Shown: piece after piece, positions 2-60,857 of the stretch
Layout of the letters: every line of letters begins with the position of its first letter
Numbering within the stretch: position 1 is the first letter of the stretch
Assembly: GCA_000165345.1 (NCBI GenBank)
Contig: CM000431.1
Coordinates: 960,001-1,024,000, forward strand
Direction of reading: 5' to 3'
DNA: 64,000 bases
Made by a program: the position numbers and the translations under genes
The notes under the pieces: model-generated
Seen by the model: only the letters and a program-made list of their open reading frames with translations
What the model was told of the DNA's origin: nothing
Database searches by the model: none

Positions 2-1399
2 CCATATGGTAATTCGCCTTTGAATAGAAATTTGGCAGATTATTTGAGTTATGGAATAATTAACCTTGATAAGCCAGCAAATCCATCATCCCATGAAGTG
101 GTTGCATGGATTAAGAAGATCTTAAGATGTGAAAAGACAGGTCATAGTGGTACATTGGATCCAAAAGTTACAGGCTGTTTATTGGTTTGTTTAAATAGAG
201 CAACAAGATTGGTAAAATCACAACAGAGTGCAGGTAAAGAATATGTCTGTATTGTAAGATTTCACTCAAGTGTTGGCGGTAAGTCAGCAGTGAGTAGATG
301 TCTTGAAACTTTGACAGGAGCCTTATTTCAGAGACCACCAGTAATTTCAGCTGTTAAACGTCAGCTTAGAGTACGTTCAATATATGATTCTAAGCTTTTG
401 GATTATGATGAAAAGAGGAACTTGGCTGTTTTTTGGGCAAAATGTGAGGCAGGGACATATATAAGAACAATGTGCGTTCATATGGGGTTGCTTTTAGGGG
501 TTGGGGCTCATATGCAAGAATTAAGAAGGGTAAGAAGTGGTTGTTTATCAGAAAATGACAACATGGTAACAATGCACGATATTTTGGACGCTCAGTATAT
601 GTTAGATAACTATAGAGATGAATCATATTTAAGACGTATTATTTCACCATTAGAATTACTTTTAACAGATTTACCAAGAATTGTAGTTAAGGATTCGTGC
701 GTTAATGCAATTTGTTATGGCGCAAAACTTATGATTCCTGGTGTATTGAGATTTGATAATGGAATAGATGTTGGTACCGAAGTTGTAATGATGACAACAA
801 AAGGTGAAGCTATAGCAATTGGTGTTGCTCAAATGACTACAGCTGTTATAGCTAGTGTAGATCATGGAGTAGTTGCTATAATAAAGAGAGTTATTATGGA
901 GAGAGATACATATGATATGAGATGGGGACATGGTCCTAGAGCTTCTGAAAAGAAGAAGCTTATTTTAGGTGGAAAGCTTGACAAGCATGGAAAGCCAAAT
1001 GAGCAAACACCTGAATCCTGGCTTAAATACGAGGGTTATATTCCAAAGCTTACGGGCGATCATGATGATCAAAACGATGAGGGGAAAGATATTACAGGAT
1101 CAGGATTGGAATCAGAATCTAACTCTAATATAGAATCCAGCTCATCAAAAAAGAGAAAAGAAAAGAAAGAAACAAATGATGAGGAATCATCTTCATCATT
1201 TTCTTCTAAGAACAAAAAAGAAAAGAATAAGAGAAAGAGTACTGAGCCATTAAGTGAAAATGGAAGCAGTAGTAGCAGTAGTGATAGTAGTAGTAGCAAC
1301 AGCAGTAGTGATGATGAAAAGAGTAAATCCAAAGGGAAAAAGTCATCCAAAGATAAATCAAAGAAAAAAAAGAAACACAGTCGTATCAGTGAAGACTAG
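2..1399 (+). CDS. CBF5: H/ACA snoRNP pseudouridine synthase Cbf5/dyskerin (TruB family); 5' end truncated by window edge
   Basis: Translation matches the Cbf5 core ([43 protein letters not shown]...[14 protein letters not shown] region) and has the typical Lys/Ser/Glu-rich C-terminal tail. The frame is open from position 2 ([14 protein letters not shown] aligns to about residue 85 of Cbf5), so the N-terminus lies upstream of the window. The ORF-track start at 20 is a TTG, not a real start. Confidence 0.88.
1261..1320 (+). repeat. AGT/AGC trinucleotide run encoding poly-Ser in the Cbf5 tail
   Basis: agcagtagtagcagtagtgatagtagtagtagcaacagcagtagtgat; imperfect (AGY)n coding microsatellite. Confidence 0.6.
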
Positions 1400-1909
1400 G
1401 GACTTTTACAAAGTTAGAATTCTTTTTCTATATCAAACAGGTGGATATACTATATTATGGCTATATTAATTTTCTAATTTACTCATGTCCACATTAATAT
1501 TCTTTACTTTTTCAAAAATAATTAAAATGTTCCCATTGAACATACTAATAGAACTTATTAGACTTTAAATATCATCTGAAATAGCTAATAAATCGCTTGC
1601 TAAGTTTTACAAGTACTATTTCTTTTAACTTTTTTGAGATTTATTTATTTTTTCTTTTTGAGATCGATTTGAGTTTGAATGGAGATAATTTTATTATTAT
1701 TATTGAATTGAGAAAAAATACTTTTAAAATAAATTAATATAGTGAAAAAAAAATTAAGTAAAAAAAATACGAGTTTCTAAATCTAGTATGTTCATAAATC
1801 TGTAGTATTTTTTAATGAAATTAAATTTTTCAAATGGCTTTAATAATAATGTAAAGTATTCTGGTACTCCATCATTTAGCATTAAATGACAATTAAAAAG
1901 CTTCCATGA

Positions 1910-1925
1910 TTCCCGCCGGCGGCAA
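1910..1925. promoter_or_regulatory. E2F-like GC box (TTCCCGCCGGCGGCAA) about 360 bp upstream of the Nuf2-like gene
   Basis: A GC-rich island in AT-rich intergenic DNA. It contains TTCCCGCC (reverse of GGCGGGAA) and GGCGGCAA back to back. Confidence 0.4.
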
Positions 1926-2288
1926 CATGCAAAAATGTGGGTTTTGTGGGTTAGTGAGGGGAGAATAATCATTAAGCTAAAATATCAACAGGGAGGAATA
2001 CAAAGATAGTGAGAATTGGATCTTTGGAATAATTTTGCCACATTTTCTTTCGCTTGGCACTGTATCATCTTAGTAGGCTTTATCACGGTTGAATTTCCAG
2101 GTCTTATTATTTGATTAAAAGACAGCTTTTCGATCGATTAATTTTGAATTAATACTTGAAGCTCAGTCAAAATCCAAATTCTAAGGGTCAAGACTTATTT
2201 TCAAATAAAGGAGAGGCTAAGGAAAACTTATAAAGAGGATTTGATTAAATAATGCACTTTAGCTTTAGAGAATAAAGTAAAGTTCAAA

Positions 2289-3734
2289 ATGAGGTTGCAA
2301 TCCAAACAAAAATATCAGTTTCCTGATTTGGAGATGGGAGAGCTGATGAATGAGTTGGACATGTTAGGATTTGAAGTTGGAAGTAACTTTTGGGAAAGTA
2401 TTAACCATGAAATAGCAGTAGAACTTTATATGAACTGCTTGTCAATAGCATTAGAGATAGATACAGAGGATATTCGACCGGAAGAGTTAATAGGACAACT
2501 TCCATCTTCAGCTGCTGGAATAATATCTGAAAATGGAAAGAGTCAAATTAAACCAATAGGAAATTTGAGATTTTTACGTTACTGTAAGATCCTTTGGGTA
2601 ATGATAGGAATCGATGATTTTAGTATGAATGACATTTATAGACCAACTCCAGATAGAATTTATTCGTTCTTATGTGGATTTGTGAATTTGATGCGTTTCA
2701 AAGAAGATCGTTGGATGACTTATAAGAATGAGTTTTATGAAATTGAGGAAATTTTGGACTCTGTAGACAAATCTAATGAACAGATTAAACAAAAAAAAGA
2801 AGATTTGAATAATATTAGAGTAAGATATAACGAACAAAGTGGTGAAATTGCAAATAGGAGAAGGGATAATCAGGAATACCAGGAAAAGATGAGATCTTTG
2901 CACGGAGAATTTTTGCAAAATCAACAAGAACTTAAGAGATTAACACAGTCAGAGCATGATTTAAAGGAGCAGCTTAAAGATGTTGAGTTTAGGATTACCA
3001 CTGGAAATCAAGATATACAAGATTTAAAGGATCAAGTTGTTCAGTCCCCAGAAAGACTCAGAAATACTCTGGAAGAATTGAATAAATCTTTAGAGAATGA
3101 AAGAAAACAAATTGATCAAATTAGTATCAAAAATAATGAACTAAAGGAAAGACAAAATCTATTGCAAAAGACTGAAAAGAGGCTTGGTAAGGCAAAGACA
3201 TTCCTTGAACAAACTATTAGCGGAATTAAAGATGCAAACAATATTAAGCAATCAATCAAAGAAATCGAGCATCATATTGAGAAGGATAAATGGACAATTG
3301 AGCAAACTACAGAAGAAGAAAGGTTGCTTTTGCAAACTGTGGAACAGATTTCACTAAGAATTCAAAATAATCAACAACACTATGAGAGTTTAATTGAGGA
3401 GGCACAGACTTTACTTAATCAAGAGAAACAAAAGTTTGAGCAAGGACAGGAATTCCTTGATGTTCAAAGCAGTGAAGCATTTTCATTTGAGCGACAAGCA
3501 GAATTAATGGAAAAAGAGATCCAGAATTTAAAAGTATCTCATGAAAAGGCAATTAATGCACTCAATATTCAGCATAGCCAACTACTAAATGTTCTTACCA
3601 ATTATAAGAAACACTTAATCAGCAAACTGAATGACATAAACTCGAAGTATAACTTAAAGCTATTAGATGAAACATCCAAGGAAAATTCAACAATAAACTC
3701 TATAGAAAACACTATTGTGATGCAGCACAACTAG
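2289..3734 (+). CDS. NUF2: Kinetochore protein Nuf2-like (NDC80 complex), CH-like N-terminus plus coiled coil
   Basis: Starts at an ATG. The N-terminus (YQFPDLEMGELMNELDMLGF...ELYMNCLSIAL; DDFSMNDIYRPTPDRIYSFLCGFVNLMRFKE) follows the Nuf2 pattern (FPxL..EIV...L; DFETADIL.P...R...FLSGIINFIHFRE). The rest is a long heptad-rich coiled coil including a SPERLRN motif like Nuf2 SPEKLKN, and the length (481 aa) matches. Confidence 0.55.
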   Translation: MRLQSKQKYQFPDLEMGELMNELDMLGFEVGSNFWESINHEIAVELYMNCLSIALEIDTEDIRPEELIGQLPSSAAGIISENGKSQIKPIGNLRFLRYCKILWVMIGIDDFSMNDIYRPTPDRIYSFLCGFVNLMRFKEDRWMTYKNEFYEIEEILDSVDKSNEQIKQKKEDLNNIRVRYNEQSGEIANRRRDNQEYQEKMRSLHGEFLQNQQELKRLTQSEHDLKEQLKDVEFRITTGNQDIQDLKDQVVQSPERLRNTLEELNKSLENERKQIDQISIKNNELKERQNLLQKTEKRLGKAKTFLEQTISGIKDANNIKQSIKEIEHHIEKDKWTIEQTTEEERLLLQTVEQISLRIQNNQQHYESLIEEAQTLLNQEKQKFEQGQEFLDVQSSEAFSFERQAELMEKEIQNLKVSHEKAINALNIQHSQLLNVLTNYKKHLISKLNDINSKYNLKLLDETSKENSTINSIENTIVMQHN

Positions 3735-3945
3735 TAATTAAATTAAAAAATATATTCCAACCACTTATTTCAAATTTTATTATATTAAATCGATAAATTT
3801 AAATATAATTATAACTGTCTAAATCAATTTTTGTAATTAACTTATCCACCACTTTTCATACATTCATTCATGTTCTATTCTAACTTCCGTCAATGTTTAC
3901 CTAAATTCAGCTTTACAAGAAATGACTAAGGGGTAAAACCAATAA

Positions 3946-3983
3946 GGCGCCATTATTTGGCGGTAGACGTGGCGGCAAATTCC
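3946..3983. promoter_or_regulatory. Cluster of E2F-like boxes (GGCGCC, TTTGGCGG, GGCGGCAAATTCC) upstream of the gene at 4316
   Basis: Three GC boxes lie within 40 bp in AT-rich intergenic DNA. Confidence 0.4.
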
Positions 3984-4315
3984 TTTTAAAAAATTATGGA
4001 CAAGATTGGGGAAAAAAAATAAACTGAAACTGTTGCTGAAGAGATTTATGCAATTTGAGAAGGTGATTAAACCGTTAATTCTCAGTGCATTTTCATGATA
4101 CTCTATTGGTTGAATATAGCGTAATATTTATACAAGATCTATGATTTTCTTTGATTAAGTGTGGAAACAATAATTGGCAATTTTAAGAATAAAGTGTTTA
4201 AAGATAAAAAAAAAAAAAAACTTTCTAATTATTCTGGAAGATAATATATACTGCTTTCATATAAGAACTGCCGACTTTCTCATTTCAAAAAAAATAGAGT
4301 GATTGTTTCGTAAAT

Positions 4316-4906
4316 ATGTTTCGTTGTAGAATCTGTACTGAGCCACCTTTTAGCCATTTTTTTAATTTGAGAATTTTTAATGGATATTTTTCTGATGAAA
4401 GGTCTAAAAAAACCCCTTACCAACTGAGTGAAGGAGATTCTGTCTATGATACTCAATCATATGGAAGCTCACTTTTAGCTACTCCATCCAACTTAAATTC
4501 ATTTGAGCCAAGAAGCTCTGAGGAAATTAATTCTATCTGTCTCAAATGGGAAAAATGTGTACATGAGAGAGGTAGGGAATTTTGGAGGACTTCAGAGTGT
4601 TTGATGGAGGTGCTTTCAGCAATAGCCCGGGGTGTTAACAATAACGATGACCCGATTTTGGGTGATCCCCAGAGATGTATTATGTGGTATGGACAGGTTT
4701 CGGCAATTGATGGATGTCCAGTCATAAGGATGAAGAGACCAGATGAGGTTGTTGAAACTCATACATATGTAAACAGAGCGTTAGTATTCTTGTATGCTAG
4801 CGATGAATCCTTTGAGGAGTTACAATTGAAGCCAAGAGTGGCATTCAATATGGCTTGTGGGAACCGTAGATGTGTTCATTTGCGTCATATATCTCTGGAC
4901 GACTAA
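4316..4906 (+). CDS. Hypothetical Cys/His-containing protein (196 aa) of unknown function
   Basis: Clean ATG-initiated ORF. It contains CRIC near the N-terminus, CIMWYG...H..V.RAL and a C-terminal CGNRRCVHLRH. I recognise no confident homolog (see finding on possible degenerate HNH-like fold). Confidence 0.4.
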   Translation: MFRCRICTEPPFSHFFNLRIFNGYFSDERSKKTPYQLSEGDSVYDTQSYGSSLLATPSNLNSFEPRSSEEINSICLKWEKCVHERGREFWRTSECLMEVLSAIARGVNNNDDPILGDPQRCIMWYGQVSAIDGCPVIRMKRPDEVVETHTYVNRALVFLYASDESFEELQLKPRVAFNMACGNRRCVHLRHISLDD

Positions 4907-5587
4907 CAGTATGGTTAATATGGAGTATTCATCATACGTAATAACAAATAGTAGTGATGATAGAAAGCTGTATATATTATATGCATGCTCTCCACTCGCT
5001 ACCGTATTTCATTTAAGAGCCAAGAAAAAAAAAATAATCAGAGTATTTCTTTTTTTTTTTTTTTTTAATTAACAATCTAAACAATCGAGTCTGAACTTCG
5101 ATATAAGCGTTGTTGAGGTGCTACTTAGCCATGAAGTATAATTACGCATGCATTAAACATTTTTATTTAATGCTTGATTTATCCAGTTCATTCAATTTAC
5201 AATGGGGAAATGTGAAGTCACAATCTAATCTTTCGAGGCTCTACTATTCAAATTTATTGATACTTAGACAGAAATCAGGCCTCCAATTAGAGCCAATAAG
5301 GTTTTGTATTCGGGTTTCTTATATGTTTGCGCGAAGTATTTATTAGAGTTCTTTTTGGTAACTTCTTTATTTACTCTTTTTTTTTGGTGTAATTAATTTA
5401 GCTCCTCTCCACACACACATGTATATCTTTTTAAATATTTCTCTCTATTCTTATCGTGTCTATTTATCTATGTTTAAAAGACTCTTAAAGCTTGTATTCA
5501 ATATCTTCTCATTCCCTTTCTCTACAAATGGTCTCTCTCTTGAACTCTCTTTAAAGTCATTTCAGACATTAAATTTTGGTCATCTCT

Positions 5588-5618
5588 GGCGCCAAACAAA
5601 GCCACATTGGCGCCAAAA
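5588..5618. promoter_or_regulatory. Two E2F-like sites (GGCGCCAAA and TTGGCGCCAAAA) about 180-200 bp upstream of the Snu114 ATG
   Basis: ctGGCGCCAAAcaaagccacaTTGGCGCCAAAAtt. These are palindromic E2F-type boxes, preceded by a long CT-rich tract (5400-5580). Confidence 0.5.
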
Positions 5619-17742: not shown

Positions 17743-17753
17743 TTGGCGCCAAT
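17743..17753. promoter_or_regulatory. Palindromic E2F-like site TTGGCGCCAAT about 150 bp upstream of the Has1 helicase start
   Basis: ccaTTGGCGCCAATatt. Confidence 0.45.
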
Positions 17754-21925: not shown

Positions 21926-22825
21926 CTAATTCTGAGTCAGTAAAGTTAGGAATTTAATAGCTTGACTACATACAAATGTATCAGGTATTTTTTCTGGTGG
22001 TATAACTAAAAATTCTTCATTATTATCTTTAACAAAACCACATGCCATTAAAATCTCTATTGATCCTTGGTATTTGAGTACTTTTGACTCAAAAGTTGGG
22101 TTCTTTAAACGAATTCTCTTATACTTTTCTTCATAAGGATGACTATGAACATTGTTAATATATGTTTTAAGTAGATTAAAGCATGTCATTATACCCTGTA
22201 AATCTTTTGATCTATATTCTTTATTCATTCGATTACAATAATATGCAACCTTTTCTTTATTTCCTTTTGGAACTTCGTTTGTTTTTTCTTCAGGATAAGG
22301 ACATCCAAATCTTTCTTCCCATTCTTCCTTAAGTAAGCTTAATTGACGTTGTCTTTCAACTTCATGAGCATTCTTTTCTTTAGCTGCTTTTTCAATATTT
22401 CGAATCCTTTCTGCTTCTTCAAGCTTTCTTTGAGCTTCTAATAATTGCTTTGTAGAAGCTATTCTACGTTTTTCTTTCTCAATTTCTTCTTCTTTTTCTC
22501 TTTGTATACGTAATTCTCTAGCTCTTCTTTGCAATTCTTTTGCTTTTTCAAGAGCTTCTTCATCTGTTAATTTGGGTGCCCCTGGAATGCTATCAGAACC
22601 AGAAATTTCAATTATAGGTTCCTTAATAGAATCATCCTTAGAATTCTCTTCAAGCCAAGTTACTGCATTTTCTAGTCCTTTATTTCTAGTAAAGAAAATG
22701 GCTTTTTCTGATTCTACTTGGCCAAAACCCATTTCCATTAAAGAGTTAAGTAGGTTTTTATCAACGTAATTTTTTATATCATCACAATTATCACTAATAT
22801 TTGTTGGTTTTTCAGTATCTGTCAT
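21926..22825 (-). CDS. UBA-domain and PUB-domain protein with central Glu/Arg/Lys coiled coil (p97/Cdc48-adaptor-like)
   Basis: The N-terminus has a UBA-like fold (LLNSLMEMGFGQVESEKAIFFTRNKGLENAVTWL). The C-terminus matches the PUB signature NP.EEKY.RIRLKNPTFESKVL...GSIEILMACGF. Confidence 0.5.
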   Translation of the reverse strand: MTDTEKPTNISDNCDDIKNYVDKNLLNSLMEMGFGQVESEKAIFFTRNKGLENAVTWLEENSKDDSIKEPIIEISGSDSIPGAPKLTDEEALEKAKELQRRARELRIQREKEEEIEKEKRRIASTKQLLEAQRKLEEAERIRNIEKAAKEKNAHEVERQRQLSLLKEEWEERFGCPYPEEKTNEVPKGNKEKVAYYCNRMNKEYRSKDLQGIMTCFNLLKTYINNVHSHPYEEKYKRIRLKNPTFESKVLKYQGSIEILMACGFVKDNNEEFLVIPPEKIPDTFVCSQAIKFLTLLTQN

Positions 22826-23466
22826 TTTTGACTCTAATACTATTCTTTATATTATTAATAATTTTAAAAATCTTGTATAATTTTGTTTGTTGATTGTAAA
22901 CAATTAATTCAAGATTATACCTTTTTTTTTAACAAGCCTAATAAACAAAATTACAAGCTTTTATTATGAATTCTTGAACTTTATCTCTATTTATATGAAA
23001 TTTAAATAAATATTATTTATAATATAAATTTAAATAATATTTATATTTTTTTATTAGATCGAGTTTATGACGTAATTATTATTATTTTTTTTTTTAAATA
23101 ATTTATTGCCATTACGTGTCCCGTTTTACCGGCATGTAAATCTTAAACTGGTTTTCCCCCCACTTGCAAGGGAAAAAATTAATAACATTACACGTAATAA
23201 AAATATTAATAGTTTTGTGGGAAAAAAAAAATTGGAAATTATAATATAGACTAAGACTAATTAAATTCAAGAACTATCTATGATGTACTGAGTTTTTCTT
23301 TTTTACCAAGAAAAATTTCTGTTTGAAGTTTGAATTAAGTAATTCTTTTCAATAGTGCATTTTGGAGGGATTTACTTACCTACCTTAAATATATATTAAT
23401 CAATTAATGTATAACAGTCTATTACTAAGATTTATTAACAATTAGATATTGAAATTTCAAAGGTAA

Positions 23467-23523
23467 ATGGCAAGATTATCACTACATCCAAGAATATTTG
23501 AATCCGAGTATTCGGCAGAAACA
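23467..23523 (+). CDS. BRN1: Condensin complex subunit H/Barren (kleisin-gamma), exon 1
   Basis: ATG GCA AGA ... ACA is followed by GTAAGT. This exon is needed because the long ORF's annotated start (23675) is TTG, and the conserved Barren N-terminal motifs lie before the first in-frame ATG of that ORF. Confidence 0.45.
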
Positions 23524-23644
23524 GTAAGTTCAAAAGGAAGTTTTGATCATTAGATTTTTTTTTTTTCTATTGGTCTATCTTCTATATACCTATTTTTTCT
23601 TTTTTTTTGAACCAAATTACTCTCATATAAAATTATTGAAATAG
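23524..23644 (+). other. BRN1: Intron 1 of condensin H gene (121 nt, GTAAGT...long T-tract...AAATAG)
   Basis: Donor GTAAGT, a long polypyrimidine tract and acceptor AG at 23643-23644. The in-frame codon ending at the acceptor is TAG, so the downstream ORF opens exactly at the splice site. Confidence 0.45.
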
Positions 23645-26089
23645 GATAATTATTTAGAAGAAAATGTATCAAATTTGAATAAAAATGGCTGGTCTGGAAG
23701 GAAGATACAAAAATCAGTTTTACCAAATAAAAGAAGATCTATTTCTATTGGACAAAGTAGAAATGATGACTCTGAAACTACTAGACTTTCAAGAACATCT
23801 ATCAATTTGAAGGGACAAATAGATCAAAATAAATCATTTTTTTCAAAAAGCTCGTCAGATCAACTACCAAATGAAGAACTTGATAAGCTTTGTAATCAAT
23901 GCTTAAATCTACTTAGACAAAATAAAATATCTTCAAAGAATGCATTTGATATCCTTCTAATTGATCACTTAAATGATATTGTAAATGTACAAGATTCTCA
24001 AAATGAAGAAGAAAAATCAAATATAATTAAAAAAGAAAACAAAGAGAATGTTTCTAAAATTAACAATAATTCAAAAGAAAAGAATATTGAAATAGATAAA
24101 TCAAAGATGAATAAAGGAGAATTTCATAATGAGATGATAAGCTCAGAAACAACCTCTCAGGATACTAATTTTCAAAAATTCCAAAGAGCTGCAGTAACAT
24201 TGGAAGCATCAGCTAGAATATATGGATATAGAGTAGATTCGACATTTGATAATGCTTATAGGATTTTATCTAACATAAAAAGTGGACAAATTTTAGCTAG
24301 AAATGATTCAGATTGTGAAGAAGATGAAAAAGATCAGCAAGAAGATGATTCTTCTGGTAATAGATTAGAAGAGTCAAGTAAGAAGAAAAAATATAAAAGA
24401 AACTTGATTTTTTCTGGAGAAAATAATACTATAGTGAGCAATCCAGAATCTATTACATTAAAGGAGTTTGAAAAAACTAAAGAAATGAGTGAGAAGCCAT
24501 TTTTTGTTAATTTTTTGAATGATAAGGTTAAAATAGATAATATTAGATTTGGATTAGACTATAATAATATTGGTTCAATTTCATCAATGCTAATGAATAA
24601 CTTGGAATTGAAAGATTCATTATATAATAGAGACAAATCAGCTTCACTTACATTTAATATATCAGGAAGGAATAATTTGATAAATAGTAATAACTTTTCA
24701 TGTTCAACAATTTGTAAAGATGAATTATTCAAAGTAAATAAGAAAACATTGGATTTACTTCTTCCAAATCCAAATGAAAATTTTGGCAAGGATATTAGTA
24801 ATATTGTTTGCCCAAATTTATCAAGGATTTTTGATTCAATTCAAGAAATTACAGAGAATTATGGTGATATTAAACAAGTTAAAGATTCAACTTCTATTGA
24901 GGAATATCAACTAAATGAACAAGTAATTAGGAGATTTTTTGAATTTACTGATCCATCATTTGAGAATGATTCATTAGAATCTGAGAATAACTTTTTGAAG
25001 AAACATAGTCAGAGCATGGATGATATTGAATATGTGAATGAAAATCAAGATCTTGAATTTTTGAATAATTTTGAAGAGGAGGAGAAGGTGGAGCTTAATA
25101 TGGGATTACAAGATTTTCAAATGCATGTTGAGAGAGTTATTAAAGATTTGAATAAGACTGAATCTTCTGAACATATTTTAGAGGATTTAGATCAAAACAA
25201 AGATATTGAGATTGAAAAAAAGTCTGGTGAATTTAAGTTCAGTAAGATTGGCGATGTTCTTGATTTTCTAGCTAAAAAATCAACCAAAAGTTTAGAATTT
25301 TTCAACGAAAGAAAAAAAGGGGAAAAAAGTAATAGTGTATTTGGACAAAAGTTAAGATCAAAATCAGAAAATACGAATTTTGAAATTCCCTCTCCATTAT
25401 TAACCAATAATATATTTAATGGTATTGAATGGATGAATAATTTACCAAAGATTAAACAAACTCAAATAAACTCAAGTAGATCAAAAACTAAAAACTTATC
25501 AAGTAACAAGTTATTTGTTGGAAAGAATAGTACTACTTCAATATTTAACTATAACTTGAACCACTTATTTTGTCTGGCAAATCTTACTGGAGTTAAAATA
25601 AACTTAAGATCAATACATAAAGCTGAGAATTCAGAAGAAACTGCTGGTCAAAATTACATTACAAATGATATACTAATAAAGACAAACAACTCACAACATA
25701 TTAATAAGAATATCTTAAATAATTCTATGAGTGAACAAACAGATCTTATGGTAAATCATTGCGAAATTGAAGATCTTATGCAAGTTGAAAGTTATCTCCA
25801 ACCATTAAGCCAAGAGGAATTCTCTATAGATAATGGCAAAGATATTCTTATTCAAAGTAAATTATTATTACCATTTGATGAAGATAAGATTTCCGATACA
25901 GATATCCTTCTTGAAAAAAGTTCAAAGTCTCTTCATGTTAGAGATGAATACAACAGCTCATTAAAATTCTCCAAGTCATCAAATCATGTTGATATCGATT
26001 TAATCAAGAATGTTTTGAAGAATTCGATTCAGATTCTACAATCAGACGATTCCAATTCTTTGACATTATTTAATATTATAAATCAATCA
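23645..26089 (+). CDS. BRN1: Condensin complex subunit H/Barren, exon 2
   Basis: Contains kleisin N-terminal motifs: CNQCLNLLRQNKISSKNAFDILLIDHL (compare human [26 protein letters not shown]) and FQKFQRAAVTLEASARIYGYRVDSTFDNAYRILSNI (compare [34 protein letters not shown]). The rest is Asn-rich low complexity. Confidence 0.6.
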
Positions 26090-26194
26090 GTAAGTTTTTT
26101 AAATAGTAATTTGTGGAATATACTTTCTGTATTTATTTCGCAAATTGTTATTATATATTAATTCAAACTTGACCACTTTCATTCTTTTTTATAG
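26090..26194 (+). other. BRN1: Intron 2 of condensin H gene (105 nt, GTAAGT...TTTTTTATAG)
   Basis: Phase-0 GTAAGT donor at 26090 and acceptor AG at 26193-26194. Only the spliced product carries the conserved kleisin C-terminal winged-helix motif. Confidence 0.55.
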
Positions 26195-26398
26195 AGAAAA
26201 TTATTACAACAAGATGGTTTAAACTCCGTTTCAACTGGAATATTTTTTATTTGTATTTTACATATTTGTAATGAAAATAATTATTCTCTAAACTTATCAG
26301 ATCAAAACGCAAATTCTGACTCACCTATTGAATTAAATTCAGAAAATTATGTTCATATAATGCTTAATTTAAATTCATCCGTGGATTTACAGAAATAA
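26195..26398 (+). CDS. BRN1: Condensin complex subunit H/Barren, exon 3 (C-terminal SMC-binding winged helix)
   Basis: Encodes RKLLQQDGLNSVSTGIFFICILHICNENNYSLNLSD...; GIFFICILHICNENNYSL matches the Barren C-terminal consensus (VSFAFIALLHLANEKNLKL). Stop TAA at 26396-26398. Confidence 0.55.
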   Translation, partial: RKLLQQDGLNSVSTGIFFICILHICNENNYSLNLSDQNANSDSPIELNSENYVHIMLNLNSSVDLQK

Positions 26399-33806: not shown

Positions 33807-33819
33807 CGTAAACTGTTTT
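33807..33819. promoter_or_regulatory. Palindromic E2F-like site TTTTGGCGCCAATT about 140 bp upstream of CacyBP
   Basis: ctgTTTTGGCGCCAATTcat. Confidence 0.45.
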
Positions 33820-34165
33820 GGCGCCAATTCATATTTGAGTAAAAAATTTTTAAAAAATCATGCAAGGAGTGAATATATAATGTGAGAAAATATTATTTGA
33901 TCAAATATTGATTAAATGGTTTGTGATAAATGCGAAATAAACATAGTAAAACAAACAGAATGTGTAATTTGCTATCACTTAGAGACTTTAGGCAAGAATA
34001 TCGAAAATACTTATATAGTAAACTGCGAACAAAATCGTAAAAATAAGATTTAATAATTAAAGAAAGGATTTAAAGTTTCTGAATAATGAAACTAATTTTA
34101 AAGCCAAAAGTGATAATATAAAGCAAAATTGACTATAATAATTGCAAAATTCTCTAATGAATTAA

Positions 34166-34855
34166 TTAGTTATTGCTAAGTAAATTCAAATAATTTTTGA
34201 AAATTACTTCATTGCATCCCAATGATTTGTTTTTATTTGCATTAGAGTCAACATTTTCAATTGGGTTTTCTGGTAATGGGATTCTAATAATTTCACAAGC
34301 ACTATCCAAAATCCACTTATTCTTTTCAATGATATTTTTAAGCTCAGTAGAATCTTTGGGGAAATCAAGTAACTCGCTTAAAACAGCAGTGCTAATGCAA
34401 CTGTGAGAACAATTAACTGAATAGATAATAATGTCACGAATAGAATCGTAAAATCCTTGTATCTTCTCAACCTTGCTTCTGAGTTGATCATTTGTTTTTA
34501 ATAAGTTCCACATATTTGCATATCTACAACTAGTTAATAAATCATTAAGTTGTATAATTTGCTTTATATTTGGGTCATTTTGAACTGACAATGGAATTTG
34601 ATAAGTGCATGATAGAAAGTCAGATGATAATGGACCTCTTATTATTGAGAGCAATAAAATATCCTGTACAATTTCTAGATTGGTTCTTTTAGGGTAAATT
34701 GAATATTGTAGTAAAACAACTAAATTATTTAAAATACTATATTGACCTTTAATAATCTGGTCTCTCACGCAATTCTCGAATATATCCAAATTTGAGACAT
34801 CATATCTAGATGCTGAGTTAAGTAAACTCGTAATTTTCTGATCAACTTGTGCCAT
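34166..34855 (-). CDS. EIF3K: Eukaryotic translation initiation factor 3 subunit K (eIF3k)
   Basis: MAQVDQKITSLLNSASRYDVSNLDIFENCV...YSILNNLVVLLQYSIYP, LLTSCRYANMWNLL, IQGFYDSIRDIIIYSV and IEKNKWILDS are collinear with human eIF3k (RYNPENL, YDLEANLAVLKLYQFNP, LETCHFQAFW, GFEDSVRKFICHV, KYGW). The true ATG is at 34855; the longer ORF-track start at 34939 is TTG. Confidence 0.7.
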   Translation of the reverse strand: MAQVDQKITSLLNSASRYDVSNLDIFENCVRDQIIKGQYSILNNLVVLLQYSIYPKRTNLEIVQDILLLSIIRGPLSSDFLSCTYQIPLSVQNDPNIKQIIQLNDLLTSCRYANMWNLLKTNDQLRSKVEKIQGFYDSIRDIIIYSVNCSHSCISTAVLSELLDFPKDSTELKNIIEKNKWILDSACEIIRIPLPENPIENVDSNANKNKSLGCNEVIFKNYLNLLSNN

Positions 34856-36026
34856 TTTGAGTAAAAATAGATTTAAGATCAGCTCCTCGTCTTGATCAAT
34901 AACTGACTTTTTATAAATTTGTATTATTCCCAGGTTCAAACAAAAACCGAAATTTTATACCTGAGTATCTTCTCCAACTAGTCCTTTAAAAAATATAAAT
35001 TTGGACAGATTATAAAAATTTGACAAATTTCTATTTTTTAAAAAGTGAATTTTATCCTTGGAAGTAATTATCAATTTCTTTAAATAATTATTTATATTAC
35101 TTTTTAATACTATAACTATCAAACATTTCAGAAATTGTTAGCAAGTTGCAATAAGACCTATTTAATACGCCTAATTTGACTTTAAATAATTAATTGTAAT
35201 TATTAATCTCTTTTTATTAATTAATAATTTATTTGTCAATTTATATTGTGTTTATGTGGGCGCCAATAAATTATTAGAAATTTGAATTAATAGAACATGA
35301 AAATTATTAAAAAGACAAGATTTATCAACAAGTAATAATTAAACACTTGTTCTTATAATAGTTTGTATAAGGAATATTACAGTTTTTTGTTTATTAGTAT
35401 ACATTCTTATTTTTTTAACTTCTAAATTAATTTTGAATGTGCTGATTGCCAATTAGTAACGCACACTTAGTTGCTTTTTATTGCTACCCTATAAAAACAT
35501 TATTTTCTCTTTAACTAAAAATCTGAGAAGGTATTTAATCATGCTTTTTAGTTTAACAGAAATGTATGAACCATTCTGCTCCATAAAAAAATAAGGAAGG
35601 TTTTTTAAAAAAAAAAGAAACAACACCGATTATTAATTAGATATTATGATGGGTAGTATGCAAGTAACACTACTGGACTTCGTATAAAATATTTCAAGAT
35701 ATAGTTTTAGAGAACCTAGTTGAAAAAAGCTAGAAGGTTAATATAATGAATCTGAAATTTTTTCTAAATCATATTCATCTAATAAAATAATTAATATAGT
35801 ATAAGAAAATTGTTGCCTTTTTTCTAAAAGAAATAAAAAAAACTCTATCCATAATTAAATACTTGTATATTAAATAGATATTTTAAACTATAAGCTATAT
35901 TAGCTTGATAACAGTATTCTCCAACTTAATTAGACTAGCGCTAGCTAAGTTATTAATATTAATACAAAATAATATATATTGTGTGCGTGTGTTTTTTTTA
36001 AATAAACTTATCCTAAATGGCTAATA

Positions 36027-46513: not shown

Positions 46514-47506
46514 CTATTTTTTCTCAGAATTTTTCCTTCTCATCCTTTCCATATGAAGCATTGCTAATTCAGAATTAATTGTTGGAACCTGTACTTGAGT
46601 ATTTGACTGAGATTGAAGTGAATCTTGACTTGAAAGAGTATCTTGAGGGGCTTGCGTAGTGCTAATACTGGTATTAGTAATAAAAGAATCGGAAGTTTGG
46701 TTAGAAACATTTGGAAGAATAGAATTAGTAGCTTCATGACTTGTACTGTTTGAATTGGTTGACATTCTATTAAAAGCTCTAAGTGTATTCTCAGACTCGA
46801 GAAATTCAATAATTTCGGAAGAAGCTGAAATAGAGTCTGAAAAAGATTTAGCAACATCCCAAACTTTGAGTTGTCTGCCTGTTCTAGGATCGACAACAGA
46901 AACATGTGGGAGCTTGGATATGTTATATAAATTCAACCATTCATTTCCTTCAGGAGTATTTGAACTTCTCTGCCAGAAAATGAAATGCTCTTGAATAAAT
47001 TCAATGATCAAAGAATCATTCCATATATCCCTGTTTAAAATCATGGAGGAGAACTCATTTGGGCTCTGAATATTAACTAAAATTAACTTTTTCTGAGACT
47101 TGGCCTTTTCTTTGGCAATTTCAAAAGGTTCACAAAACATAATAATTTGAGGTGGAGAAAACATTTGAGTAGAGAAATCATCAACTGGAGGAAGAAGATC
47201 ATCAGTGTGAACAACTCTTCCATTTTGCATGAATTGAGAAGAATTTAAGGCATTGTGGTCGTCAGGAATAAGTTGGTCATTAAAGGATGGTATTGGGGTT
47301 CTAACATCTTCTTCATCATGAAATAAATTATTTCCAGGATTGCTGTTATTTATATTGCTTGTGGTTTCATTACCTAAGTTCGAAAAATACTCATTAATTG
47401 CACTATTCATGTCTCCTGGATACATTTCCAAATACATCTTTGCAATTTGAGAGTCAGTGCAACCCGAAATATTAATAAAATTTTCAATTTCTTCGTTTGA
47501 AACCAT
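46514..47506 (-). CDS. UAS (thioredoxin-like) domain protein with N-terminal UBA-like region, FAF/UBX-family-like but without recognisable UBX domain
   Basis: UAS-type motif AKEKAKSQKKLILVNIQSPNEFSSMILNRDIWNDSLIIEFIQEHFIFWQ. The true ATG is at 47506 (MVSNEEIENF...); the ORF-track start at 47521 is TTG. The C-terminus is an S/T/Q-rich tail. Confidence 0.5.
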   Translation of the reverse strand: MVSNEEIENFINISGCTDSQIAKMYLEMYPGDMNSAINEYFSNLGNETTSNINNSNPGNNLFHDEEDVRTPIPSFNDQLIPDDHNALNSSQFMQNGRVVHTDDLLPPVDDFSTQMFSPPQIIMFCEPFEIAKEKAKSQKKLILVNIQSPNEFSSMILNRDIWNDSLIIEFIQEHFIFWQRSSNTPEGNEWLNLYNISKLPHVSVVDPRTGRQLKVWDVAKSFSDSISASSEIIEFLESENTLRAFNRMSTNSNSTSHEATNSILPNVSNQTSDSFITNTSISTTQAPQDTLSSQDSLQSQSNTQVQVPTINSELAMLHMERMRRKNSEKK

Positions 47507-47866
47507 ATTTATATTGTCCAATAAGATTAAATAATGATGAAATTATTGATCCAAATTAAGAATTACGTTGGAAATCAATTGTGTGTACTTTCTTTTTGAT
47601 TTTAAAGATGTAATTTAAATTTCATAATTAATTAACGAATTTTTTTTTCTTTTCTTAATACACCCAATTTTAAGCTAAAAAAAAATTTCCAGGTTGAAAA
47701 CTCTCAGGGTCGGAAAAATTTATTGTTTTGCTTATAAAGCGAGAGGGGGGAAATTGTAATAAATTAATCTAAAAATAATTAAACCAAAAATATTAAAGAA
47801 TAATATAATACAGTTTTTTTAAAAAAATTATACATTAAAATATTTATATATTTAAACTAGAATTTA

Positions 47867-60716: not shown

Positions 60717-60857
60717 TTTCCCGCAATTAAAATAATTAGTTCTTAGAAAATATAAATTAATTTGTTCAACATTTCCCGCATTACTCATTTTTTTTAAATT
60801 ATTAGAATTGCAAAAAATGTCACAGAAAATTGAGAATGGTGGCGCCAATGGCGGCAA
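60717..60857. promoter_or_regulatory. Cluster of E2F-like sites (TTTCCCGCAA 60717-60726; TTTCCCGCA 60772-60780; GGCGCCAATGGCGGCAA 60841-60857) in the TAF13/APC4-like divergent promoter
   Basis: Three GC boxes lie within 140 bp of AT-rich intergenic DNA between two divergently transcribed genes. Confidence 0.45.

What the first reader, a model, noticed from the sequence alone, without database searches (positions are those of the whole stretch)
23467..26398. Condensin H/Barren gene requires two short introns; conserved N- and C-terminal kleisin motifs are otherwise lost
The long ORF (23675-26161) begins with TTG, and its first in-frame ATG lies downstream of the conserved Barren N-terminal helix (NKISSKNAFDILLIDHL). 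A 57-nt upstream exon (ATG at 23467) with a GTAAGT donor, T-rich tract and AG acceptor restores an ATG start in frame. At the 3' end, a phase-0 GTAAGT at 26090 and acceptor at 26193-26194 replace the non-conserved ORF tail with an exon encoding GIFFICILHICNENNYSL, the kleisin C-terminal winged-helix motif that binds the SMC head. This illustrates that genes in this otherwise intron-poor region can carry several introns, and that ORF-only annotation would mis-call both ends.
Basis: partly seen in the sequence, partly recalled or inferred. Interest (0 to 1): 0.5.

Follow-up and report, generated by a model that had tools for sequence, protein, structure and literature searches.

The report
Cryptosporidium condensin kleisin gene, two introns

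Summary
Every coordinate and sequence feature in the finding is right. Exons 23467-23523, 23645-26089 and 26195-26398, joined across GTAAGT...TAG introns of 121 and 105 nt (both phase 0), give a 901-aa protein. This protein is 100% identical over its full length to GenBank QOY42748.1 / WKS77146.1 / WRK31637.1, 'Condensin complex subunit 2 [Cryptosporidium parvum]'.

Both introns sit at the same codon positions in six other Cryptosporidium species. Their lengths vary (51-121 and 53-108 nt, mostly not multiples of 3). They diverge like intergenic DNA while the flanking exons stay conserved.

Only the spliced C-terminus matches the end of Pfam Cnd2 (positions 704-755 of 764); the unspliced ORF tail matches nothing. 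It folds as a winged helix whose five best PDB matches are all yeast or Chaetomium Brn1.

The 2004 Iowa II model is the bare stop-to-stop ORF (838 aa, 'partial'). A 2004 C. hominis model starts at the first internal ATG.

The paper behind the current annotation says all its introns are RNA-seq supported, but I could not see junction reads for this gene.

Verdict: observation confirmed, interpretation supported, already known, low interest.

The parts
23467..23523 (+). Exon 1 (57 nt): ATG plus 18 codons, MARLSLHPRIFESEYSAET. An in-frame TAA lies directly upstream at 23464.
   Evidence: It is 57 nt with an ATG in 7 species, with synonymous third-position changes. Identity to C. ubiquitum is 88%, against 50% for intron 1.
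23524..23644 (+). Intron 1: 121 nt, phase 0, GTAAGT...TAG, 21% GC, T-rich, two in-frame stops.
   Evidence: The homologous intron is 114/107/104/95/51/53 nt in the other species. It diverges like intergenic DNA.
23645..26089 (+). Exon 2 (2445 nt): the main body of the CAP-H/Brn1 kleisin.
   Evidence: Pfam Cnd2 PF05786. It equals the old 838-aa 'partial' model minus that model's read-through tail.
23921..23971 (+). N-terminal kleisin helix motif NKISSKNAFDILLIDHL (residues 112-128).
   Evidence: Near-invariant in 8 Cryptosporidium orthologues. It lies within Cnd2 profile positions 25-119 and aligns to yeast Brn1 NKINSRNSWNFALIDYF.
24107..24109 (+). First in-frame ATG inside exon 2 (residue 174). 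This is the false start used by the 2004 C. hominis model XP_666186.1.
26090..26194 (+). Intron 2: 105 nt, phase 0, GTAAGT...TAG, 21% GC, in-frame TAA and TAG.
   Evidence: It sits at the homologous position in all species, with lengths 108/85/85/88/53/59 nt and 204 nt in C. andersoni. It is present but unannotated in C. felis.
26195..26398 (+). Exon 3 (204 nt including the TAA stop): the C-terminal 67 residues.
   Evidence: Cnd2 profile positions 704-755/764 match only when the product is spliced.
25994..26371 (+). C-terminal winged-helix domain (residues about 803-893), interrupted by intron 2 inside its second helix. It includes the motif GIFFICILHICNENNYSL at 26237-26290.
   Evidence: AlphaFold2 model with pLDDT 85-94 over the core and H-H-H-E-E topology. 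The top 5 Foldseek PDB matches are all Brn1. The profile hit to 6qj2_B has E=0.002 and is ungapped across the junction.

Best explanation
This is the Cryptosporidium parvum chromosome 3 gene for condensin complex subunit 2, the gamma-kleisin CAP-H/Brn1/Barren of condensin I. It is transcribed left to right and spliced at two short phase-0 GT-AG introns (121 and 105 nt) to give a 901-aa protein.

Exon 1 supplies the start codon and a 19-residue extension conserved within the genus. Exon 2 encodes the N-terminal helical SMC2-neck-binding motif and the long, mostly disordered middle. Exon 3 completes the C-terminal winged-helix domain. In solved condensin structures that domain docks on the SMC4 ATPase head and closes the SMC2-kleisin-SMC4 ring.

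Shown here: gene structure, orthology, intron conservation, and domain presence and fold. Inferred from the family: ring closure and SMC and HEAT-subunit binding.
For: - The spliced product is 100% identical, with 100% coverage, to P0001 = QOY42748.1 (CPATCC_001423), WKS77146.1 and WRK31637.1. KAL5369751.1 is a separate 901-aa member of the same 90% cluster.
- Pfam Cnd2 scores 64.5 bits against a cutoff of 29.8.
- A unique GT-AG solution with both introns at identical alignment columns exists in 7 species. The 3' intron is also present in C. andersoni.
- Intron lengths are mostly not multiples of 3 and the introns carry in-frame stops. For C. parvum against C. ubiquitum, identity is 88% (exon 1) and 84% (exon 3), against 50-52% in the introns.
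- Segment test: the spliced C-terminus hits the end of Cnd2; the unspliced tail hits nothing.
- A PDB profile search returns only Brn1 chains, with an ungapped alignment across junction 834|835.
- The C-terminal AlphaFold2 model is a winged helix whose top 5 PDB matches are Brn1.
- Intron size and GC match the species averages of 99 nt and 22% (Table 1 of PMC4637869).
- Two further unnamed Cryptosporidium lineages from Logan assemblies (P0006, P0009) have ORF calls that run on as ...QS|VS..., the reading expected of a G-T-A-A-G-T-type donor at the same codon.
Against: - I could not see splice-junction reads for this gene. The RNA-seq support is a blanket statement in a paper, and its supplements are not held.
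- The orthologous gene models are themselves annotations and may have been propagated by homology. The DNA-level conservation pattern is independent of them.
- Sequence matches to solved Brn1 structures are weak (E 0.002-0.3), and no Foldseek match reached E<=0.001.
- The full-length AlphaFold2 model is poor (pLDDT 34).
Confidence: 0.95

Rival explanations
1. The gene is unspliced. The product is the single long ORF, begun at a non-ATG codon or at the internal ATG at 24107, and ends in ...VSFLNSNLWNILSVFISQIVIIY. This is how the 2004 and 2015 annotations modelled it.
For: The deposited models EAZ51458.1 (838 aa, partial), CUV05336.1 (840 aa, partial) and XP_666186.1 exist. Intron 2 is a multiple of 3 in C. 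parvum.
Against: - The stop-to-stop frame has no ATG before residue 174.
- The unspliced tail has no Pfam match, whereas the spliced C-terminus does.
- In most other species the introns are not multiples of 3, and they contain stops.
- The tail differs between C. parvum and C. hominis by an indel and several substitutions, while exon 3 is 64/67 identical.
- A kleisin without its winged-helix domain could not close the ring. This last point is inference from the family.
Confidence: 0.02
2. The 3' intron is real, but the true 5' end differs: another upstream exon, or a different acceptor or donor for intron 1.
For: 5' ends are annotated inconsistently in the genus. C. felis (P0010), one C. canis assembly (P0008) and C. 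andersoni (P0013) have other N-termini.
Against: - Exon 1 is exactly 57 nt with an ATG and a conserved donor in 7 species, shows synonymous changes, and is far better conserved than its flanks.
- The same MARLSLHPRR start with a GTAAGT donor is present, unannotated, in C. felis DNA.
- An in-frame TAA lies directly upstream of the ATG in C. parvum.
Confidence: 0.03

Closest known systems
GenBank QOY42748.1 (CPATCC_001423), condensin complex subunit 2, C. parvum IOWA-ATCC; also WKS77146.1, WRK31637.1 and KAL5369751.1 (CPHLJ_3g3960)
   Same: The protein is identical at 901/901 residues, so the exon-intron structure is identical too.
   Different: Nothing. The finding re-derives this model.
Saccharomyces cerevisiae / Chaetomium thermophilum Brn1 (PDB 6qj2, 6qj4, 6yvd, 6yvu, 7q2x, 7q2y, 7qen, 6q6e) and human NCAPH
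   Same: All share Pfam Cnd2, the N-terminal helix motif (NKIxxxN...LID), the FQ.A..TL.A...IY..RVDS block, and a C-terminal winged helix with the motif S...FIC.LH..NE.
   Different: Sequence similarity is low outside those blocks. The middle is long, AT-biased and low-complexity. The 19-aa exon 1 extension is specific to Cryptosporidium. Binding to SMC2, SMC4 and the HEAT subunits was not tested here.
Plasmodium CAP-H (PfCAP-H, PMC11078010; kleisin phylogeny in PMC7016506)
   Same: It is an apicomplexan condensin I kleisin. PMC7016506 already places a C. parvum kleisin in each of the condensin I and II clades.
   Different: I made no direct comparison here. Intron positions in Plasmodium were not examined.
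Old ORF-only models EAZ51458.1/XP_001388130.1 (C. parvum Iowa II, 838 aa partial), CUV05336.1 (C. hominis UdeA01, 840 aa partial) and XP_666186.1 (C. hominis TU502)
   Same: Same locus, and the same exon 2 sequence.
   Different: They lack exon 1 and exon 3 and read into intron 2. The TU502 model also starts at the internal ATG and so loses the N-terminal helix.

Membership tests
Condensin I gamma-kleisin (CAP-H/Brn1/Barren; Pfam Cnd2 PF05786) | Whole-protein match to Cnd2 above Pfam's gathering score | tested here: met
   64.5 bits against a cutoff of 29.8, E=1.1e-17, for the spliced product. The ORF alone scores 51.3 bits.
Condensin I gamma-kleisin (CAP-H/Brn1/Barren; Pfam Cnd2 PF05786) | N-terminal helical motif (the part that contacts the SMC2 neck in solved structures) | tested here: met
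   Residues 65-139 match Cnd2 profile positions 25-119 (E=6e-5), and residues 196-306 match positions 118-224. The motif is near-invariant in 8 orthologues. It aligns to the Brn1 N-terminus, and the Brn1N-Smc2 fusion 6q6e_A is hit only weakly (E=0.31).
Condensin I gamma-kleisin (CAP-H/Brn1/Barren; Pfam Cnd2 PF05786) | C-terminal winged-helix domain (the part that contacts the SMC4 head) | tested here: met
   Cnd2 positions 704-755/764 match, E=2.2e-5. The profile hit to 6qj2_B (Brn1 C-terminus with the Smc4 head) has E=0.002. The AlphaFold2 model has pLDDT 85-94 and H-H-H-E-E topology. Foldseek's top 5 matches are all Brn1, with probability 0.66-1.00 but E only 0.008-0.27.
Condensin I gamma-kleisin (CAP-H/Brn1/Barren; Pfam Cnd2 PF05786) | Not the condensin II kleisin (CAP-H2) and not the cohesin kleisin (Rad21/Rec8) | tested here: met
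   CNDH2_N scores only 19.2 bits, below its cutoff of 32.3, on the shared N-terminal region. There is no Rad21/Rec8 hit.
Condensin I gamma-kleisin (CAP-H/Brn1/Barren; Pfam Cnd2 PF05786) | Physical bridging of the SMC2 and SMC4 heads and recruitment of the CAP-D2 and CAP-G HEAT subunits | not testable with these tools
   This needs co-purification or complex structure prediction with the C. parvum partners.
Spliceosomal GT-AG introns of Cryptosporidium | GT...AG boundaries with a strong donor, joining the exons in frame | tested here: met
   Both introns have GTAAGT...TAG and are phase 0. There is a unique exact solution against the deposited protein.
Spliceosomal GT-AG introns of Cryptosporidium | Size and composition typical of the species | tested here: met
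   121 and 105 nt, both 21% GC, against a published mean of 99 nt and 22% GC (PMC4637869 Table 1).
Spliceosomal GT-AG introns of Cryptosporidium | Positional conservation in orthologues, with non-coding-like evolution | tested here: met
   Both introns fall in the same alignment columns in 7 species. The 3' intron is also present in C. andersoni and C. felis. Lengths are mostly not multiples of 3, and identity drops to intergenic levels.
Spliceosomal GT-AG introns of Cryptosporidium | Removal from the mature mRNA (junction reads) | not testable with these tools
   [quoted passage not shown] The per-gene data are not held.

The most novel reading that the evidence does not exclude
Intron 2 splits the second helix of the winged-helix domain. 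In C. parvum its length is a multiple of 3 and it carries stop codons. Regulated retention of this intron could yield a kleisin lacking the SMC4-binding domain. Such a product might act as a stage-specific, ring-incompetent or dominant-negative form during the parasite's unusual division cycles. Nothing here supports this reading; it is only not excluded.
Probability: 0.03. Interest if true: 0.4.

Novelty: already known. Interest (0 to 1): 0.08.

Why it matters
It matters little as a discovery, because public C. parvum, C. hominis, C. tyzzeri and C. meleagridis annotations already contain this exact gene model.

It has modest value as a quality check. Reading the sequence alone recovered a curated gene model. 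Older records for this locus (Iowa II 2004, TU502 2004, UdeA01 2015) and the current C. felis record still lack the SMC-binding ends. Anyone using those records for kleisin phylogeny, tagging or knock-out design would work from a protein without its C-terminal winged helix.

Tried and rejected
- Full-length AlphaFold2 on an 8-sequence alignment gave mean pLDDT 34. It was unusable except for residues 801-866, so I did not use it for fold search.
- Single-sequence phmmer against the PDB gave only E=0.19. I replaced it with a profile search.
- A full-text search for the term cgd3_3960 found no papers. That number is itself inferred from the CPHLJ_3g3960 and CHM_3g3960 locus tags. It occurs only in a dN/dS table in a supplement of PMC4637869.
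- Supplements of PMC8744675 are not held, so per-gene RNA-seq support could not be checked.
- GTAAGT enrichment in the window was absent, so the motif alone is not evidence.
- Rfam at gathering thresholds and tRNA scans of the window found nothing.
- The other TTG-start ORFs in the window (34166-34939 minus strand, 46514-47521 minus strand) have ATGs within 5-28 codons and need no intron.
- I tested the conserved upstream block for RNA structure and found no covariation.

Full report
**What is in the sequence**

The window is AT-rich (29% GC). Its proteins identify it as Cryptosporidium parvum chromosome 3.

- The long ORF listed as 23675-26161 starts with TTG. Its frame opens at 23645, directly after a TAG whose AG is the proposed acceptor.
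- The first in-frame ATG of that frame is at 24107 (residue 174 of the spliced product). That is downstream of NKISSKNAFDILLIDHL at 23921-23971.
- The ATG at 23467 has an in-frame TAA immediately upstream. It opens a 57-nt exon that ends at a GTAAGT donor (23524).
- A second GTAAGT at 26090 is in phase 0. A TAG acceptor ends at 26194.
- The downstream exon (26195-26398) encodes ...VSTGIFFICILHICNENNYSL... and ends with TAA.
- The introns are 121 and 105 nt, both 21% GC, and each has two in-frame stops.

**Is it more than chance?**

GTAAGT is not enriched in the window (29 found, 25.6 expected). On motif density alone:

- a phase-0 GTAAGT in the 72-nt ORF tail has p of about 0.006;
- one within 200 nt upstream has p of about 0.05.

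The hexamers are therefore only suggestive, and the decisive evidence is comparative.

I fetched the orthologous loci of C. meleagridis, C. sp. chipmunk genotype I, C. ubiquitum, C. canis, C. bovis, C. ryanae, C. andersoni and C. felis. I then solved each deposited protein exactly against its DNA.

- In seven species, C. parvum included, exon 1 is exactly 57 nt and both introns are phase 0 at identical alignment columns.
- Intron 1 is 121/114/107/104/95/51/53 nt. Intron 2 is 105/108/85/85/88/53/59 nt. Most lengths are not multiples of 3, and most introns carry in-frame stops.
- For C. parvum against C. ubiquitum, identity is 88% in exon 1 and 84% in exon 3. It is 50% and 52% in the introns, similar to the 44-53% of the flanking intergenic DNA.
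- Exon 1 shows synonymous third-position changes: CTA/CTG, CAT/CAC, TAT/TAC, AGA/AGG and CCA/CCG.
- The 3' intron is also present at the same place in C. andersoni (204 nt).
- Both sites are present but unannotated in C. felis.
- Two unnamed Cryptosporidium lineages from Logan assemblies have ORF calls that run on as ...QS|VS... at that codon.

**What it is**

The spliced 901-aa product is 100% identical over 100% of its length to P0001. That entry is QOY42748.1 (CPATCC_001423), WKS77146.1 and WRK31637.1, 'Condensin complex subunit 2 [Cryptosporidium parvum]'. KAL5369751.1 (CPHLJ_3g3960) is a separate 901-aa member of the same cluster. Orthologues of 897-902 aa with the same ends are deposited for C. 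hominis, C. tyzzeri and C. meleagridis.

Pfam Cnd2 (PF05786) scores 64.5 bits against a cutoff of 29.8.

A segment test isolates what splicing contributes:

| Segment tested | Cnd2 result |
|---|---|
| Spliced C-terminal 128 aa | profile positions 704-755 of 764, E=2.2e-5 |
| Unspliced ORF tail | no match |
| 173 residues upstream of the first internal ATG | positions 25-119 |
| Sequence from that ATG onward | starts at position 118 |

A profile of eight orthologues searched against the PDB returns only condensin Brn1 chains. The best is the Brn1 C-terminal domain crystallised with the Smc4 head (6qj2_B, E=0.002). That alignment runs ungapped across the exon 2/exon 3 junction, 834|835.

AlphaFold2 on the C-terminal 128 residues gives pLDDT 85-94 over an H-H-H-E-E winged helix. 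The junction falls in the middle of the second helix. The five best Foldseek PDB matches are all Brn1 chains, followed by generic winged helices such as ORC, PadR, Fur and MukF. The E-values are modest, 0.008-0.27.

CNDH2_N scores below its cutoff, and there is no Rad21/Rec8 hit. The protein is therefore the condensin I gamma-kleisin rather than CAP-H2 or a cohesin kleisin. This agrees with PMC7016506, which already reports a C. parvum kleisin in each condensin clade.

**How it works**

Shown here: a three-exon gene whose product carries the N-terminal helical motif and the C-terminal winged helix of CAP-H/Brn1.

Inferred from the solved yeast and Chaetomium complexes named:

- the N-terminus binds the SMC2 neck;
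- the winged helix binds the SMC4 head;
- together they close the tripartite ring that, with the HEAT subunits, compacts chromosomes.

Without intron 2 removal the protein would end 23 residues into the intron and lack about half of the winged helix. Exon 1 contributes the start codon and a 19-residue extension (M.RLS...) conserved within the genus. Exon 1 lies outside the Cnd2 profile match, which begins at residue 65.

**Transcript evidence**

I could not inspect RNA-seq. PMC8744675 describes the annotation that uses the CPATCC locus tags. [quoted passage not shown] Its supplements are not held.

The introns' size and GC match the species means of 99 nt and 22% (PMC4637869 Table 1).

**History of the locus**

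- EAZ51458.1/XP_001388130.1 (Iowa II, 2004) is exactly the stop-to-stop ORF 23645-26158, 838 aa, flagged 'partial'.
- CUV05336.1 (C. hominis UdeA01) is the equivalent 840-aa ORF.
- XP_666186.1 (C. hominis TU502) starts at MNKGEF, the first internal ATG.

**Verdict**

The finding is already known, because the identical model is public, and I score interest low.

The rivals are an unspliced product and a different 5' exon. Together they hold about 5%. Junction-spanning reads would eliminate them.

Noticed in passing
L008 (C. felis JABXOJ010000010.1) 1583-4250: The deposited C. felis model (P0010, 801 aa) ends ...NIIKHSVS, which reads into intron 2. The DNA has a GTAAGT donor at 3977 and an exon 4044-4250 encoding REILSEERENSVTTGIFFICMLHICNEEGY...EQQK. 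Its annotated N-terminus uses another frame. A conserved MARLSLHPRR start (ATG 1583, GTAAGT donor 1637, acceptor ending at 1702) joins in frame.
   Followed up: partly
window 23110-23175 (intergenic, between the divergent UBA/PUB gene 21926-22825 on the minus strand and CAP-H): The non-coding block TTACGTGTCCCnTTTTACCGGCATGTAAA...CCCCAC is nearly invariant in 8 of 9 Cryptosporidium species, although the surrounding intergenic DNA is unalignable. ACCGGCATG occurs once in the window. There is no relevant Rfam match, since the only hit in the intergenic scan was a sub-threshold mir-308 match at 22875-22920. There is no covariation and only a weak consensus fold. The flanking inverted ACGTGT/ACACGT pair is not consistently conserved. 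It is probably a cis-regulatory site of the bidirectional promoter.
   Followed up: partly
whole window, e.g. 5587-5615, 17744-17751, 33819-33826, 60840-60847: TGGCGC occurs 21 times against 1.4 expected, often as the palindrome TGGCGCCA. From memory, this resembles the E2F-like promoter motif described for Cryptosporidium. None lies in the 640-nt region upstream of the condensin gene.
   Followed up: no
L007 (C. andersoni) 1501-4458: The C. andersoni model has three introns (85, 74 and 204 nt) and an N-terminus unrelated to MARLSL... Only the 3' intron is clearly homologous to the C. parvum one. The 5' structure may truly differ in gastric species or may be mis-annotated.
   Followed up: no
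P0007 against P0008 (two C. canis assemblies): One C. canis record starts MARLSLHPKRFESEYYVEE|HQGRHG (conserved exon 1). The other starts MWKRYVEYRHQGRHG. The two annotations of the same gene's 5' end are inconsistent.
   Followed up: no
window 20-1399 (+): This ORF has no ATG until codon 150 and begins with a dyskerin/Cbf5-like sequence (...[21 protein letters not shown]...). It is probably cut by the window edge rather than being intron-containing.
   Followed up: no
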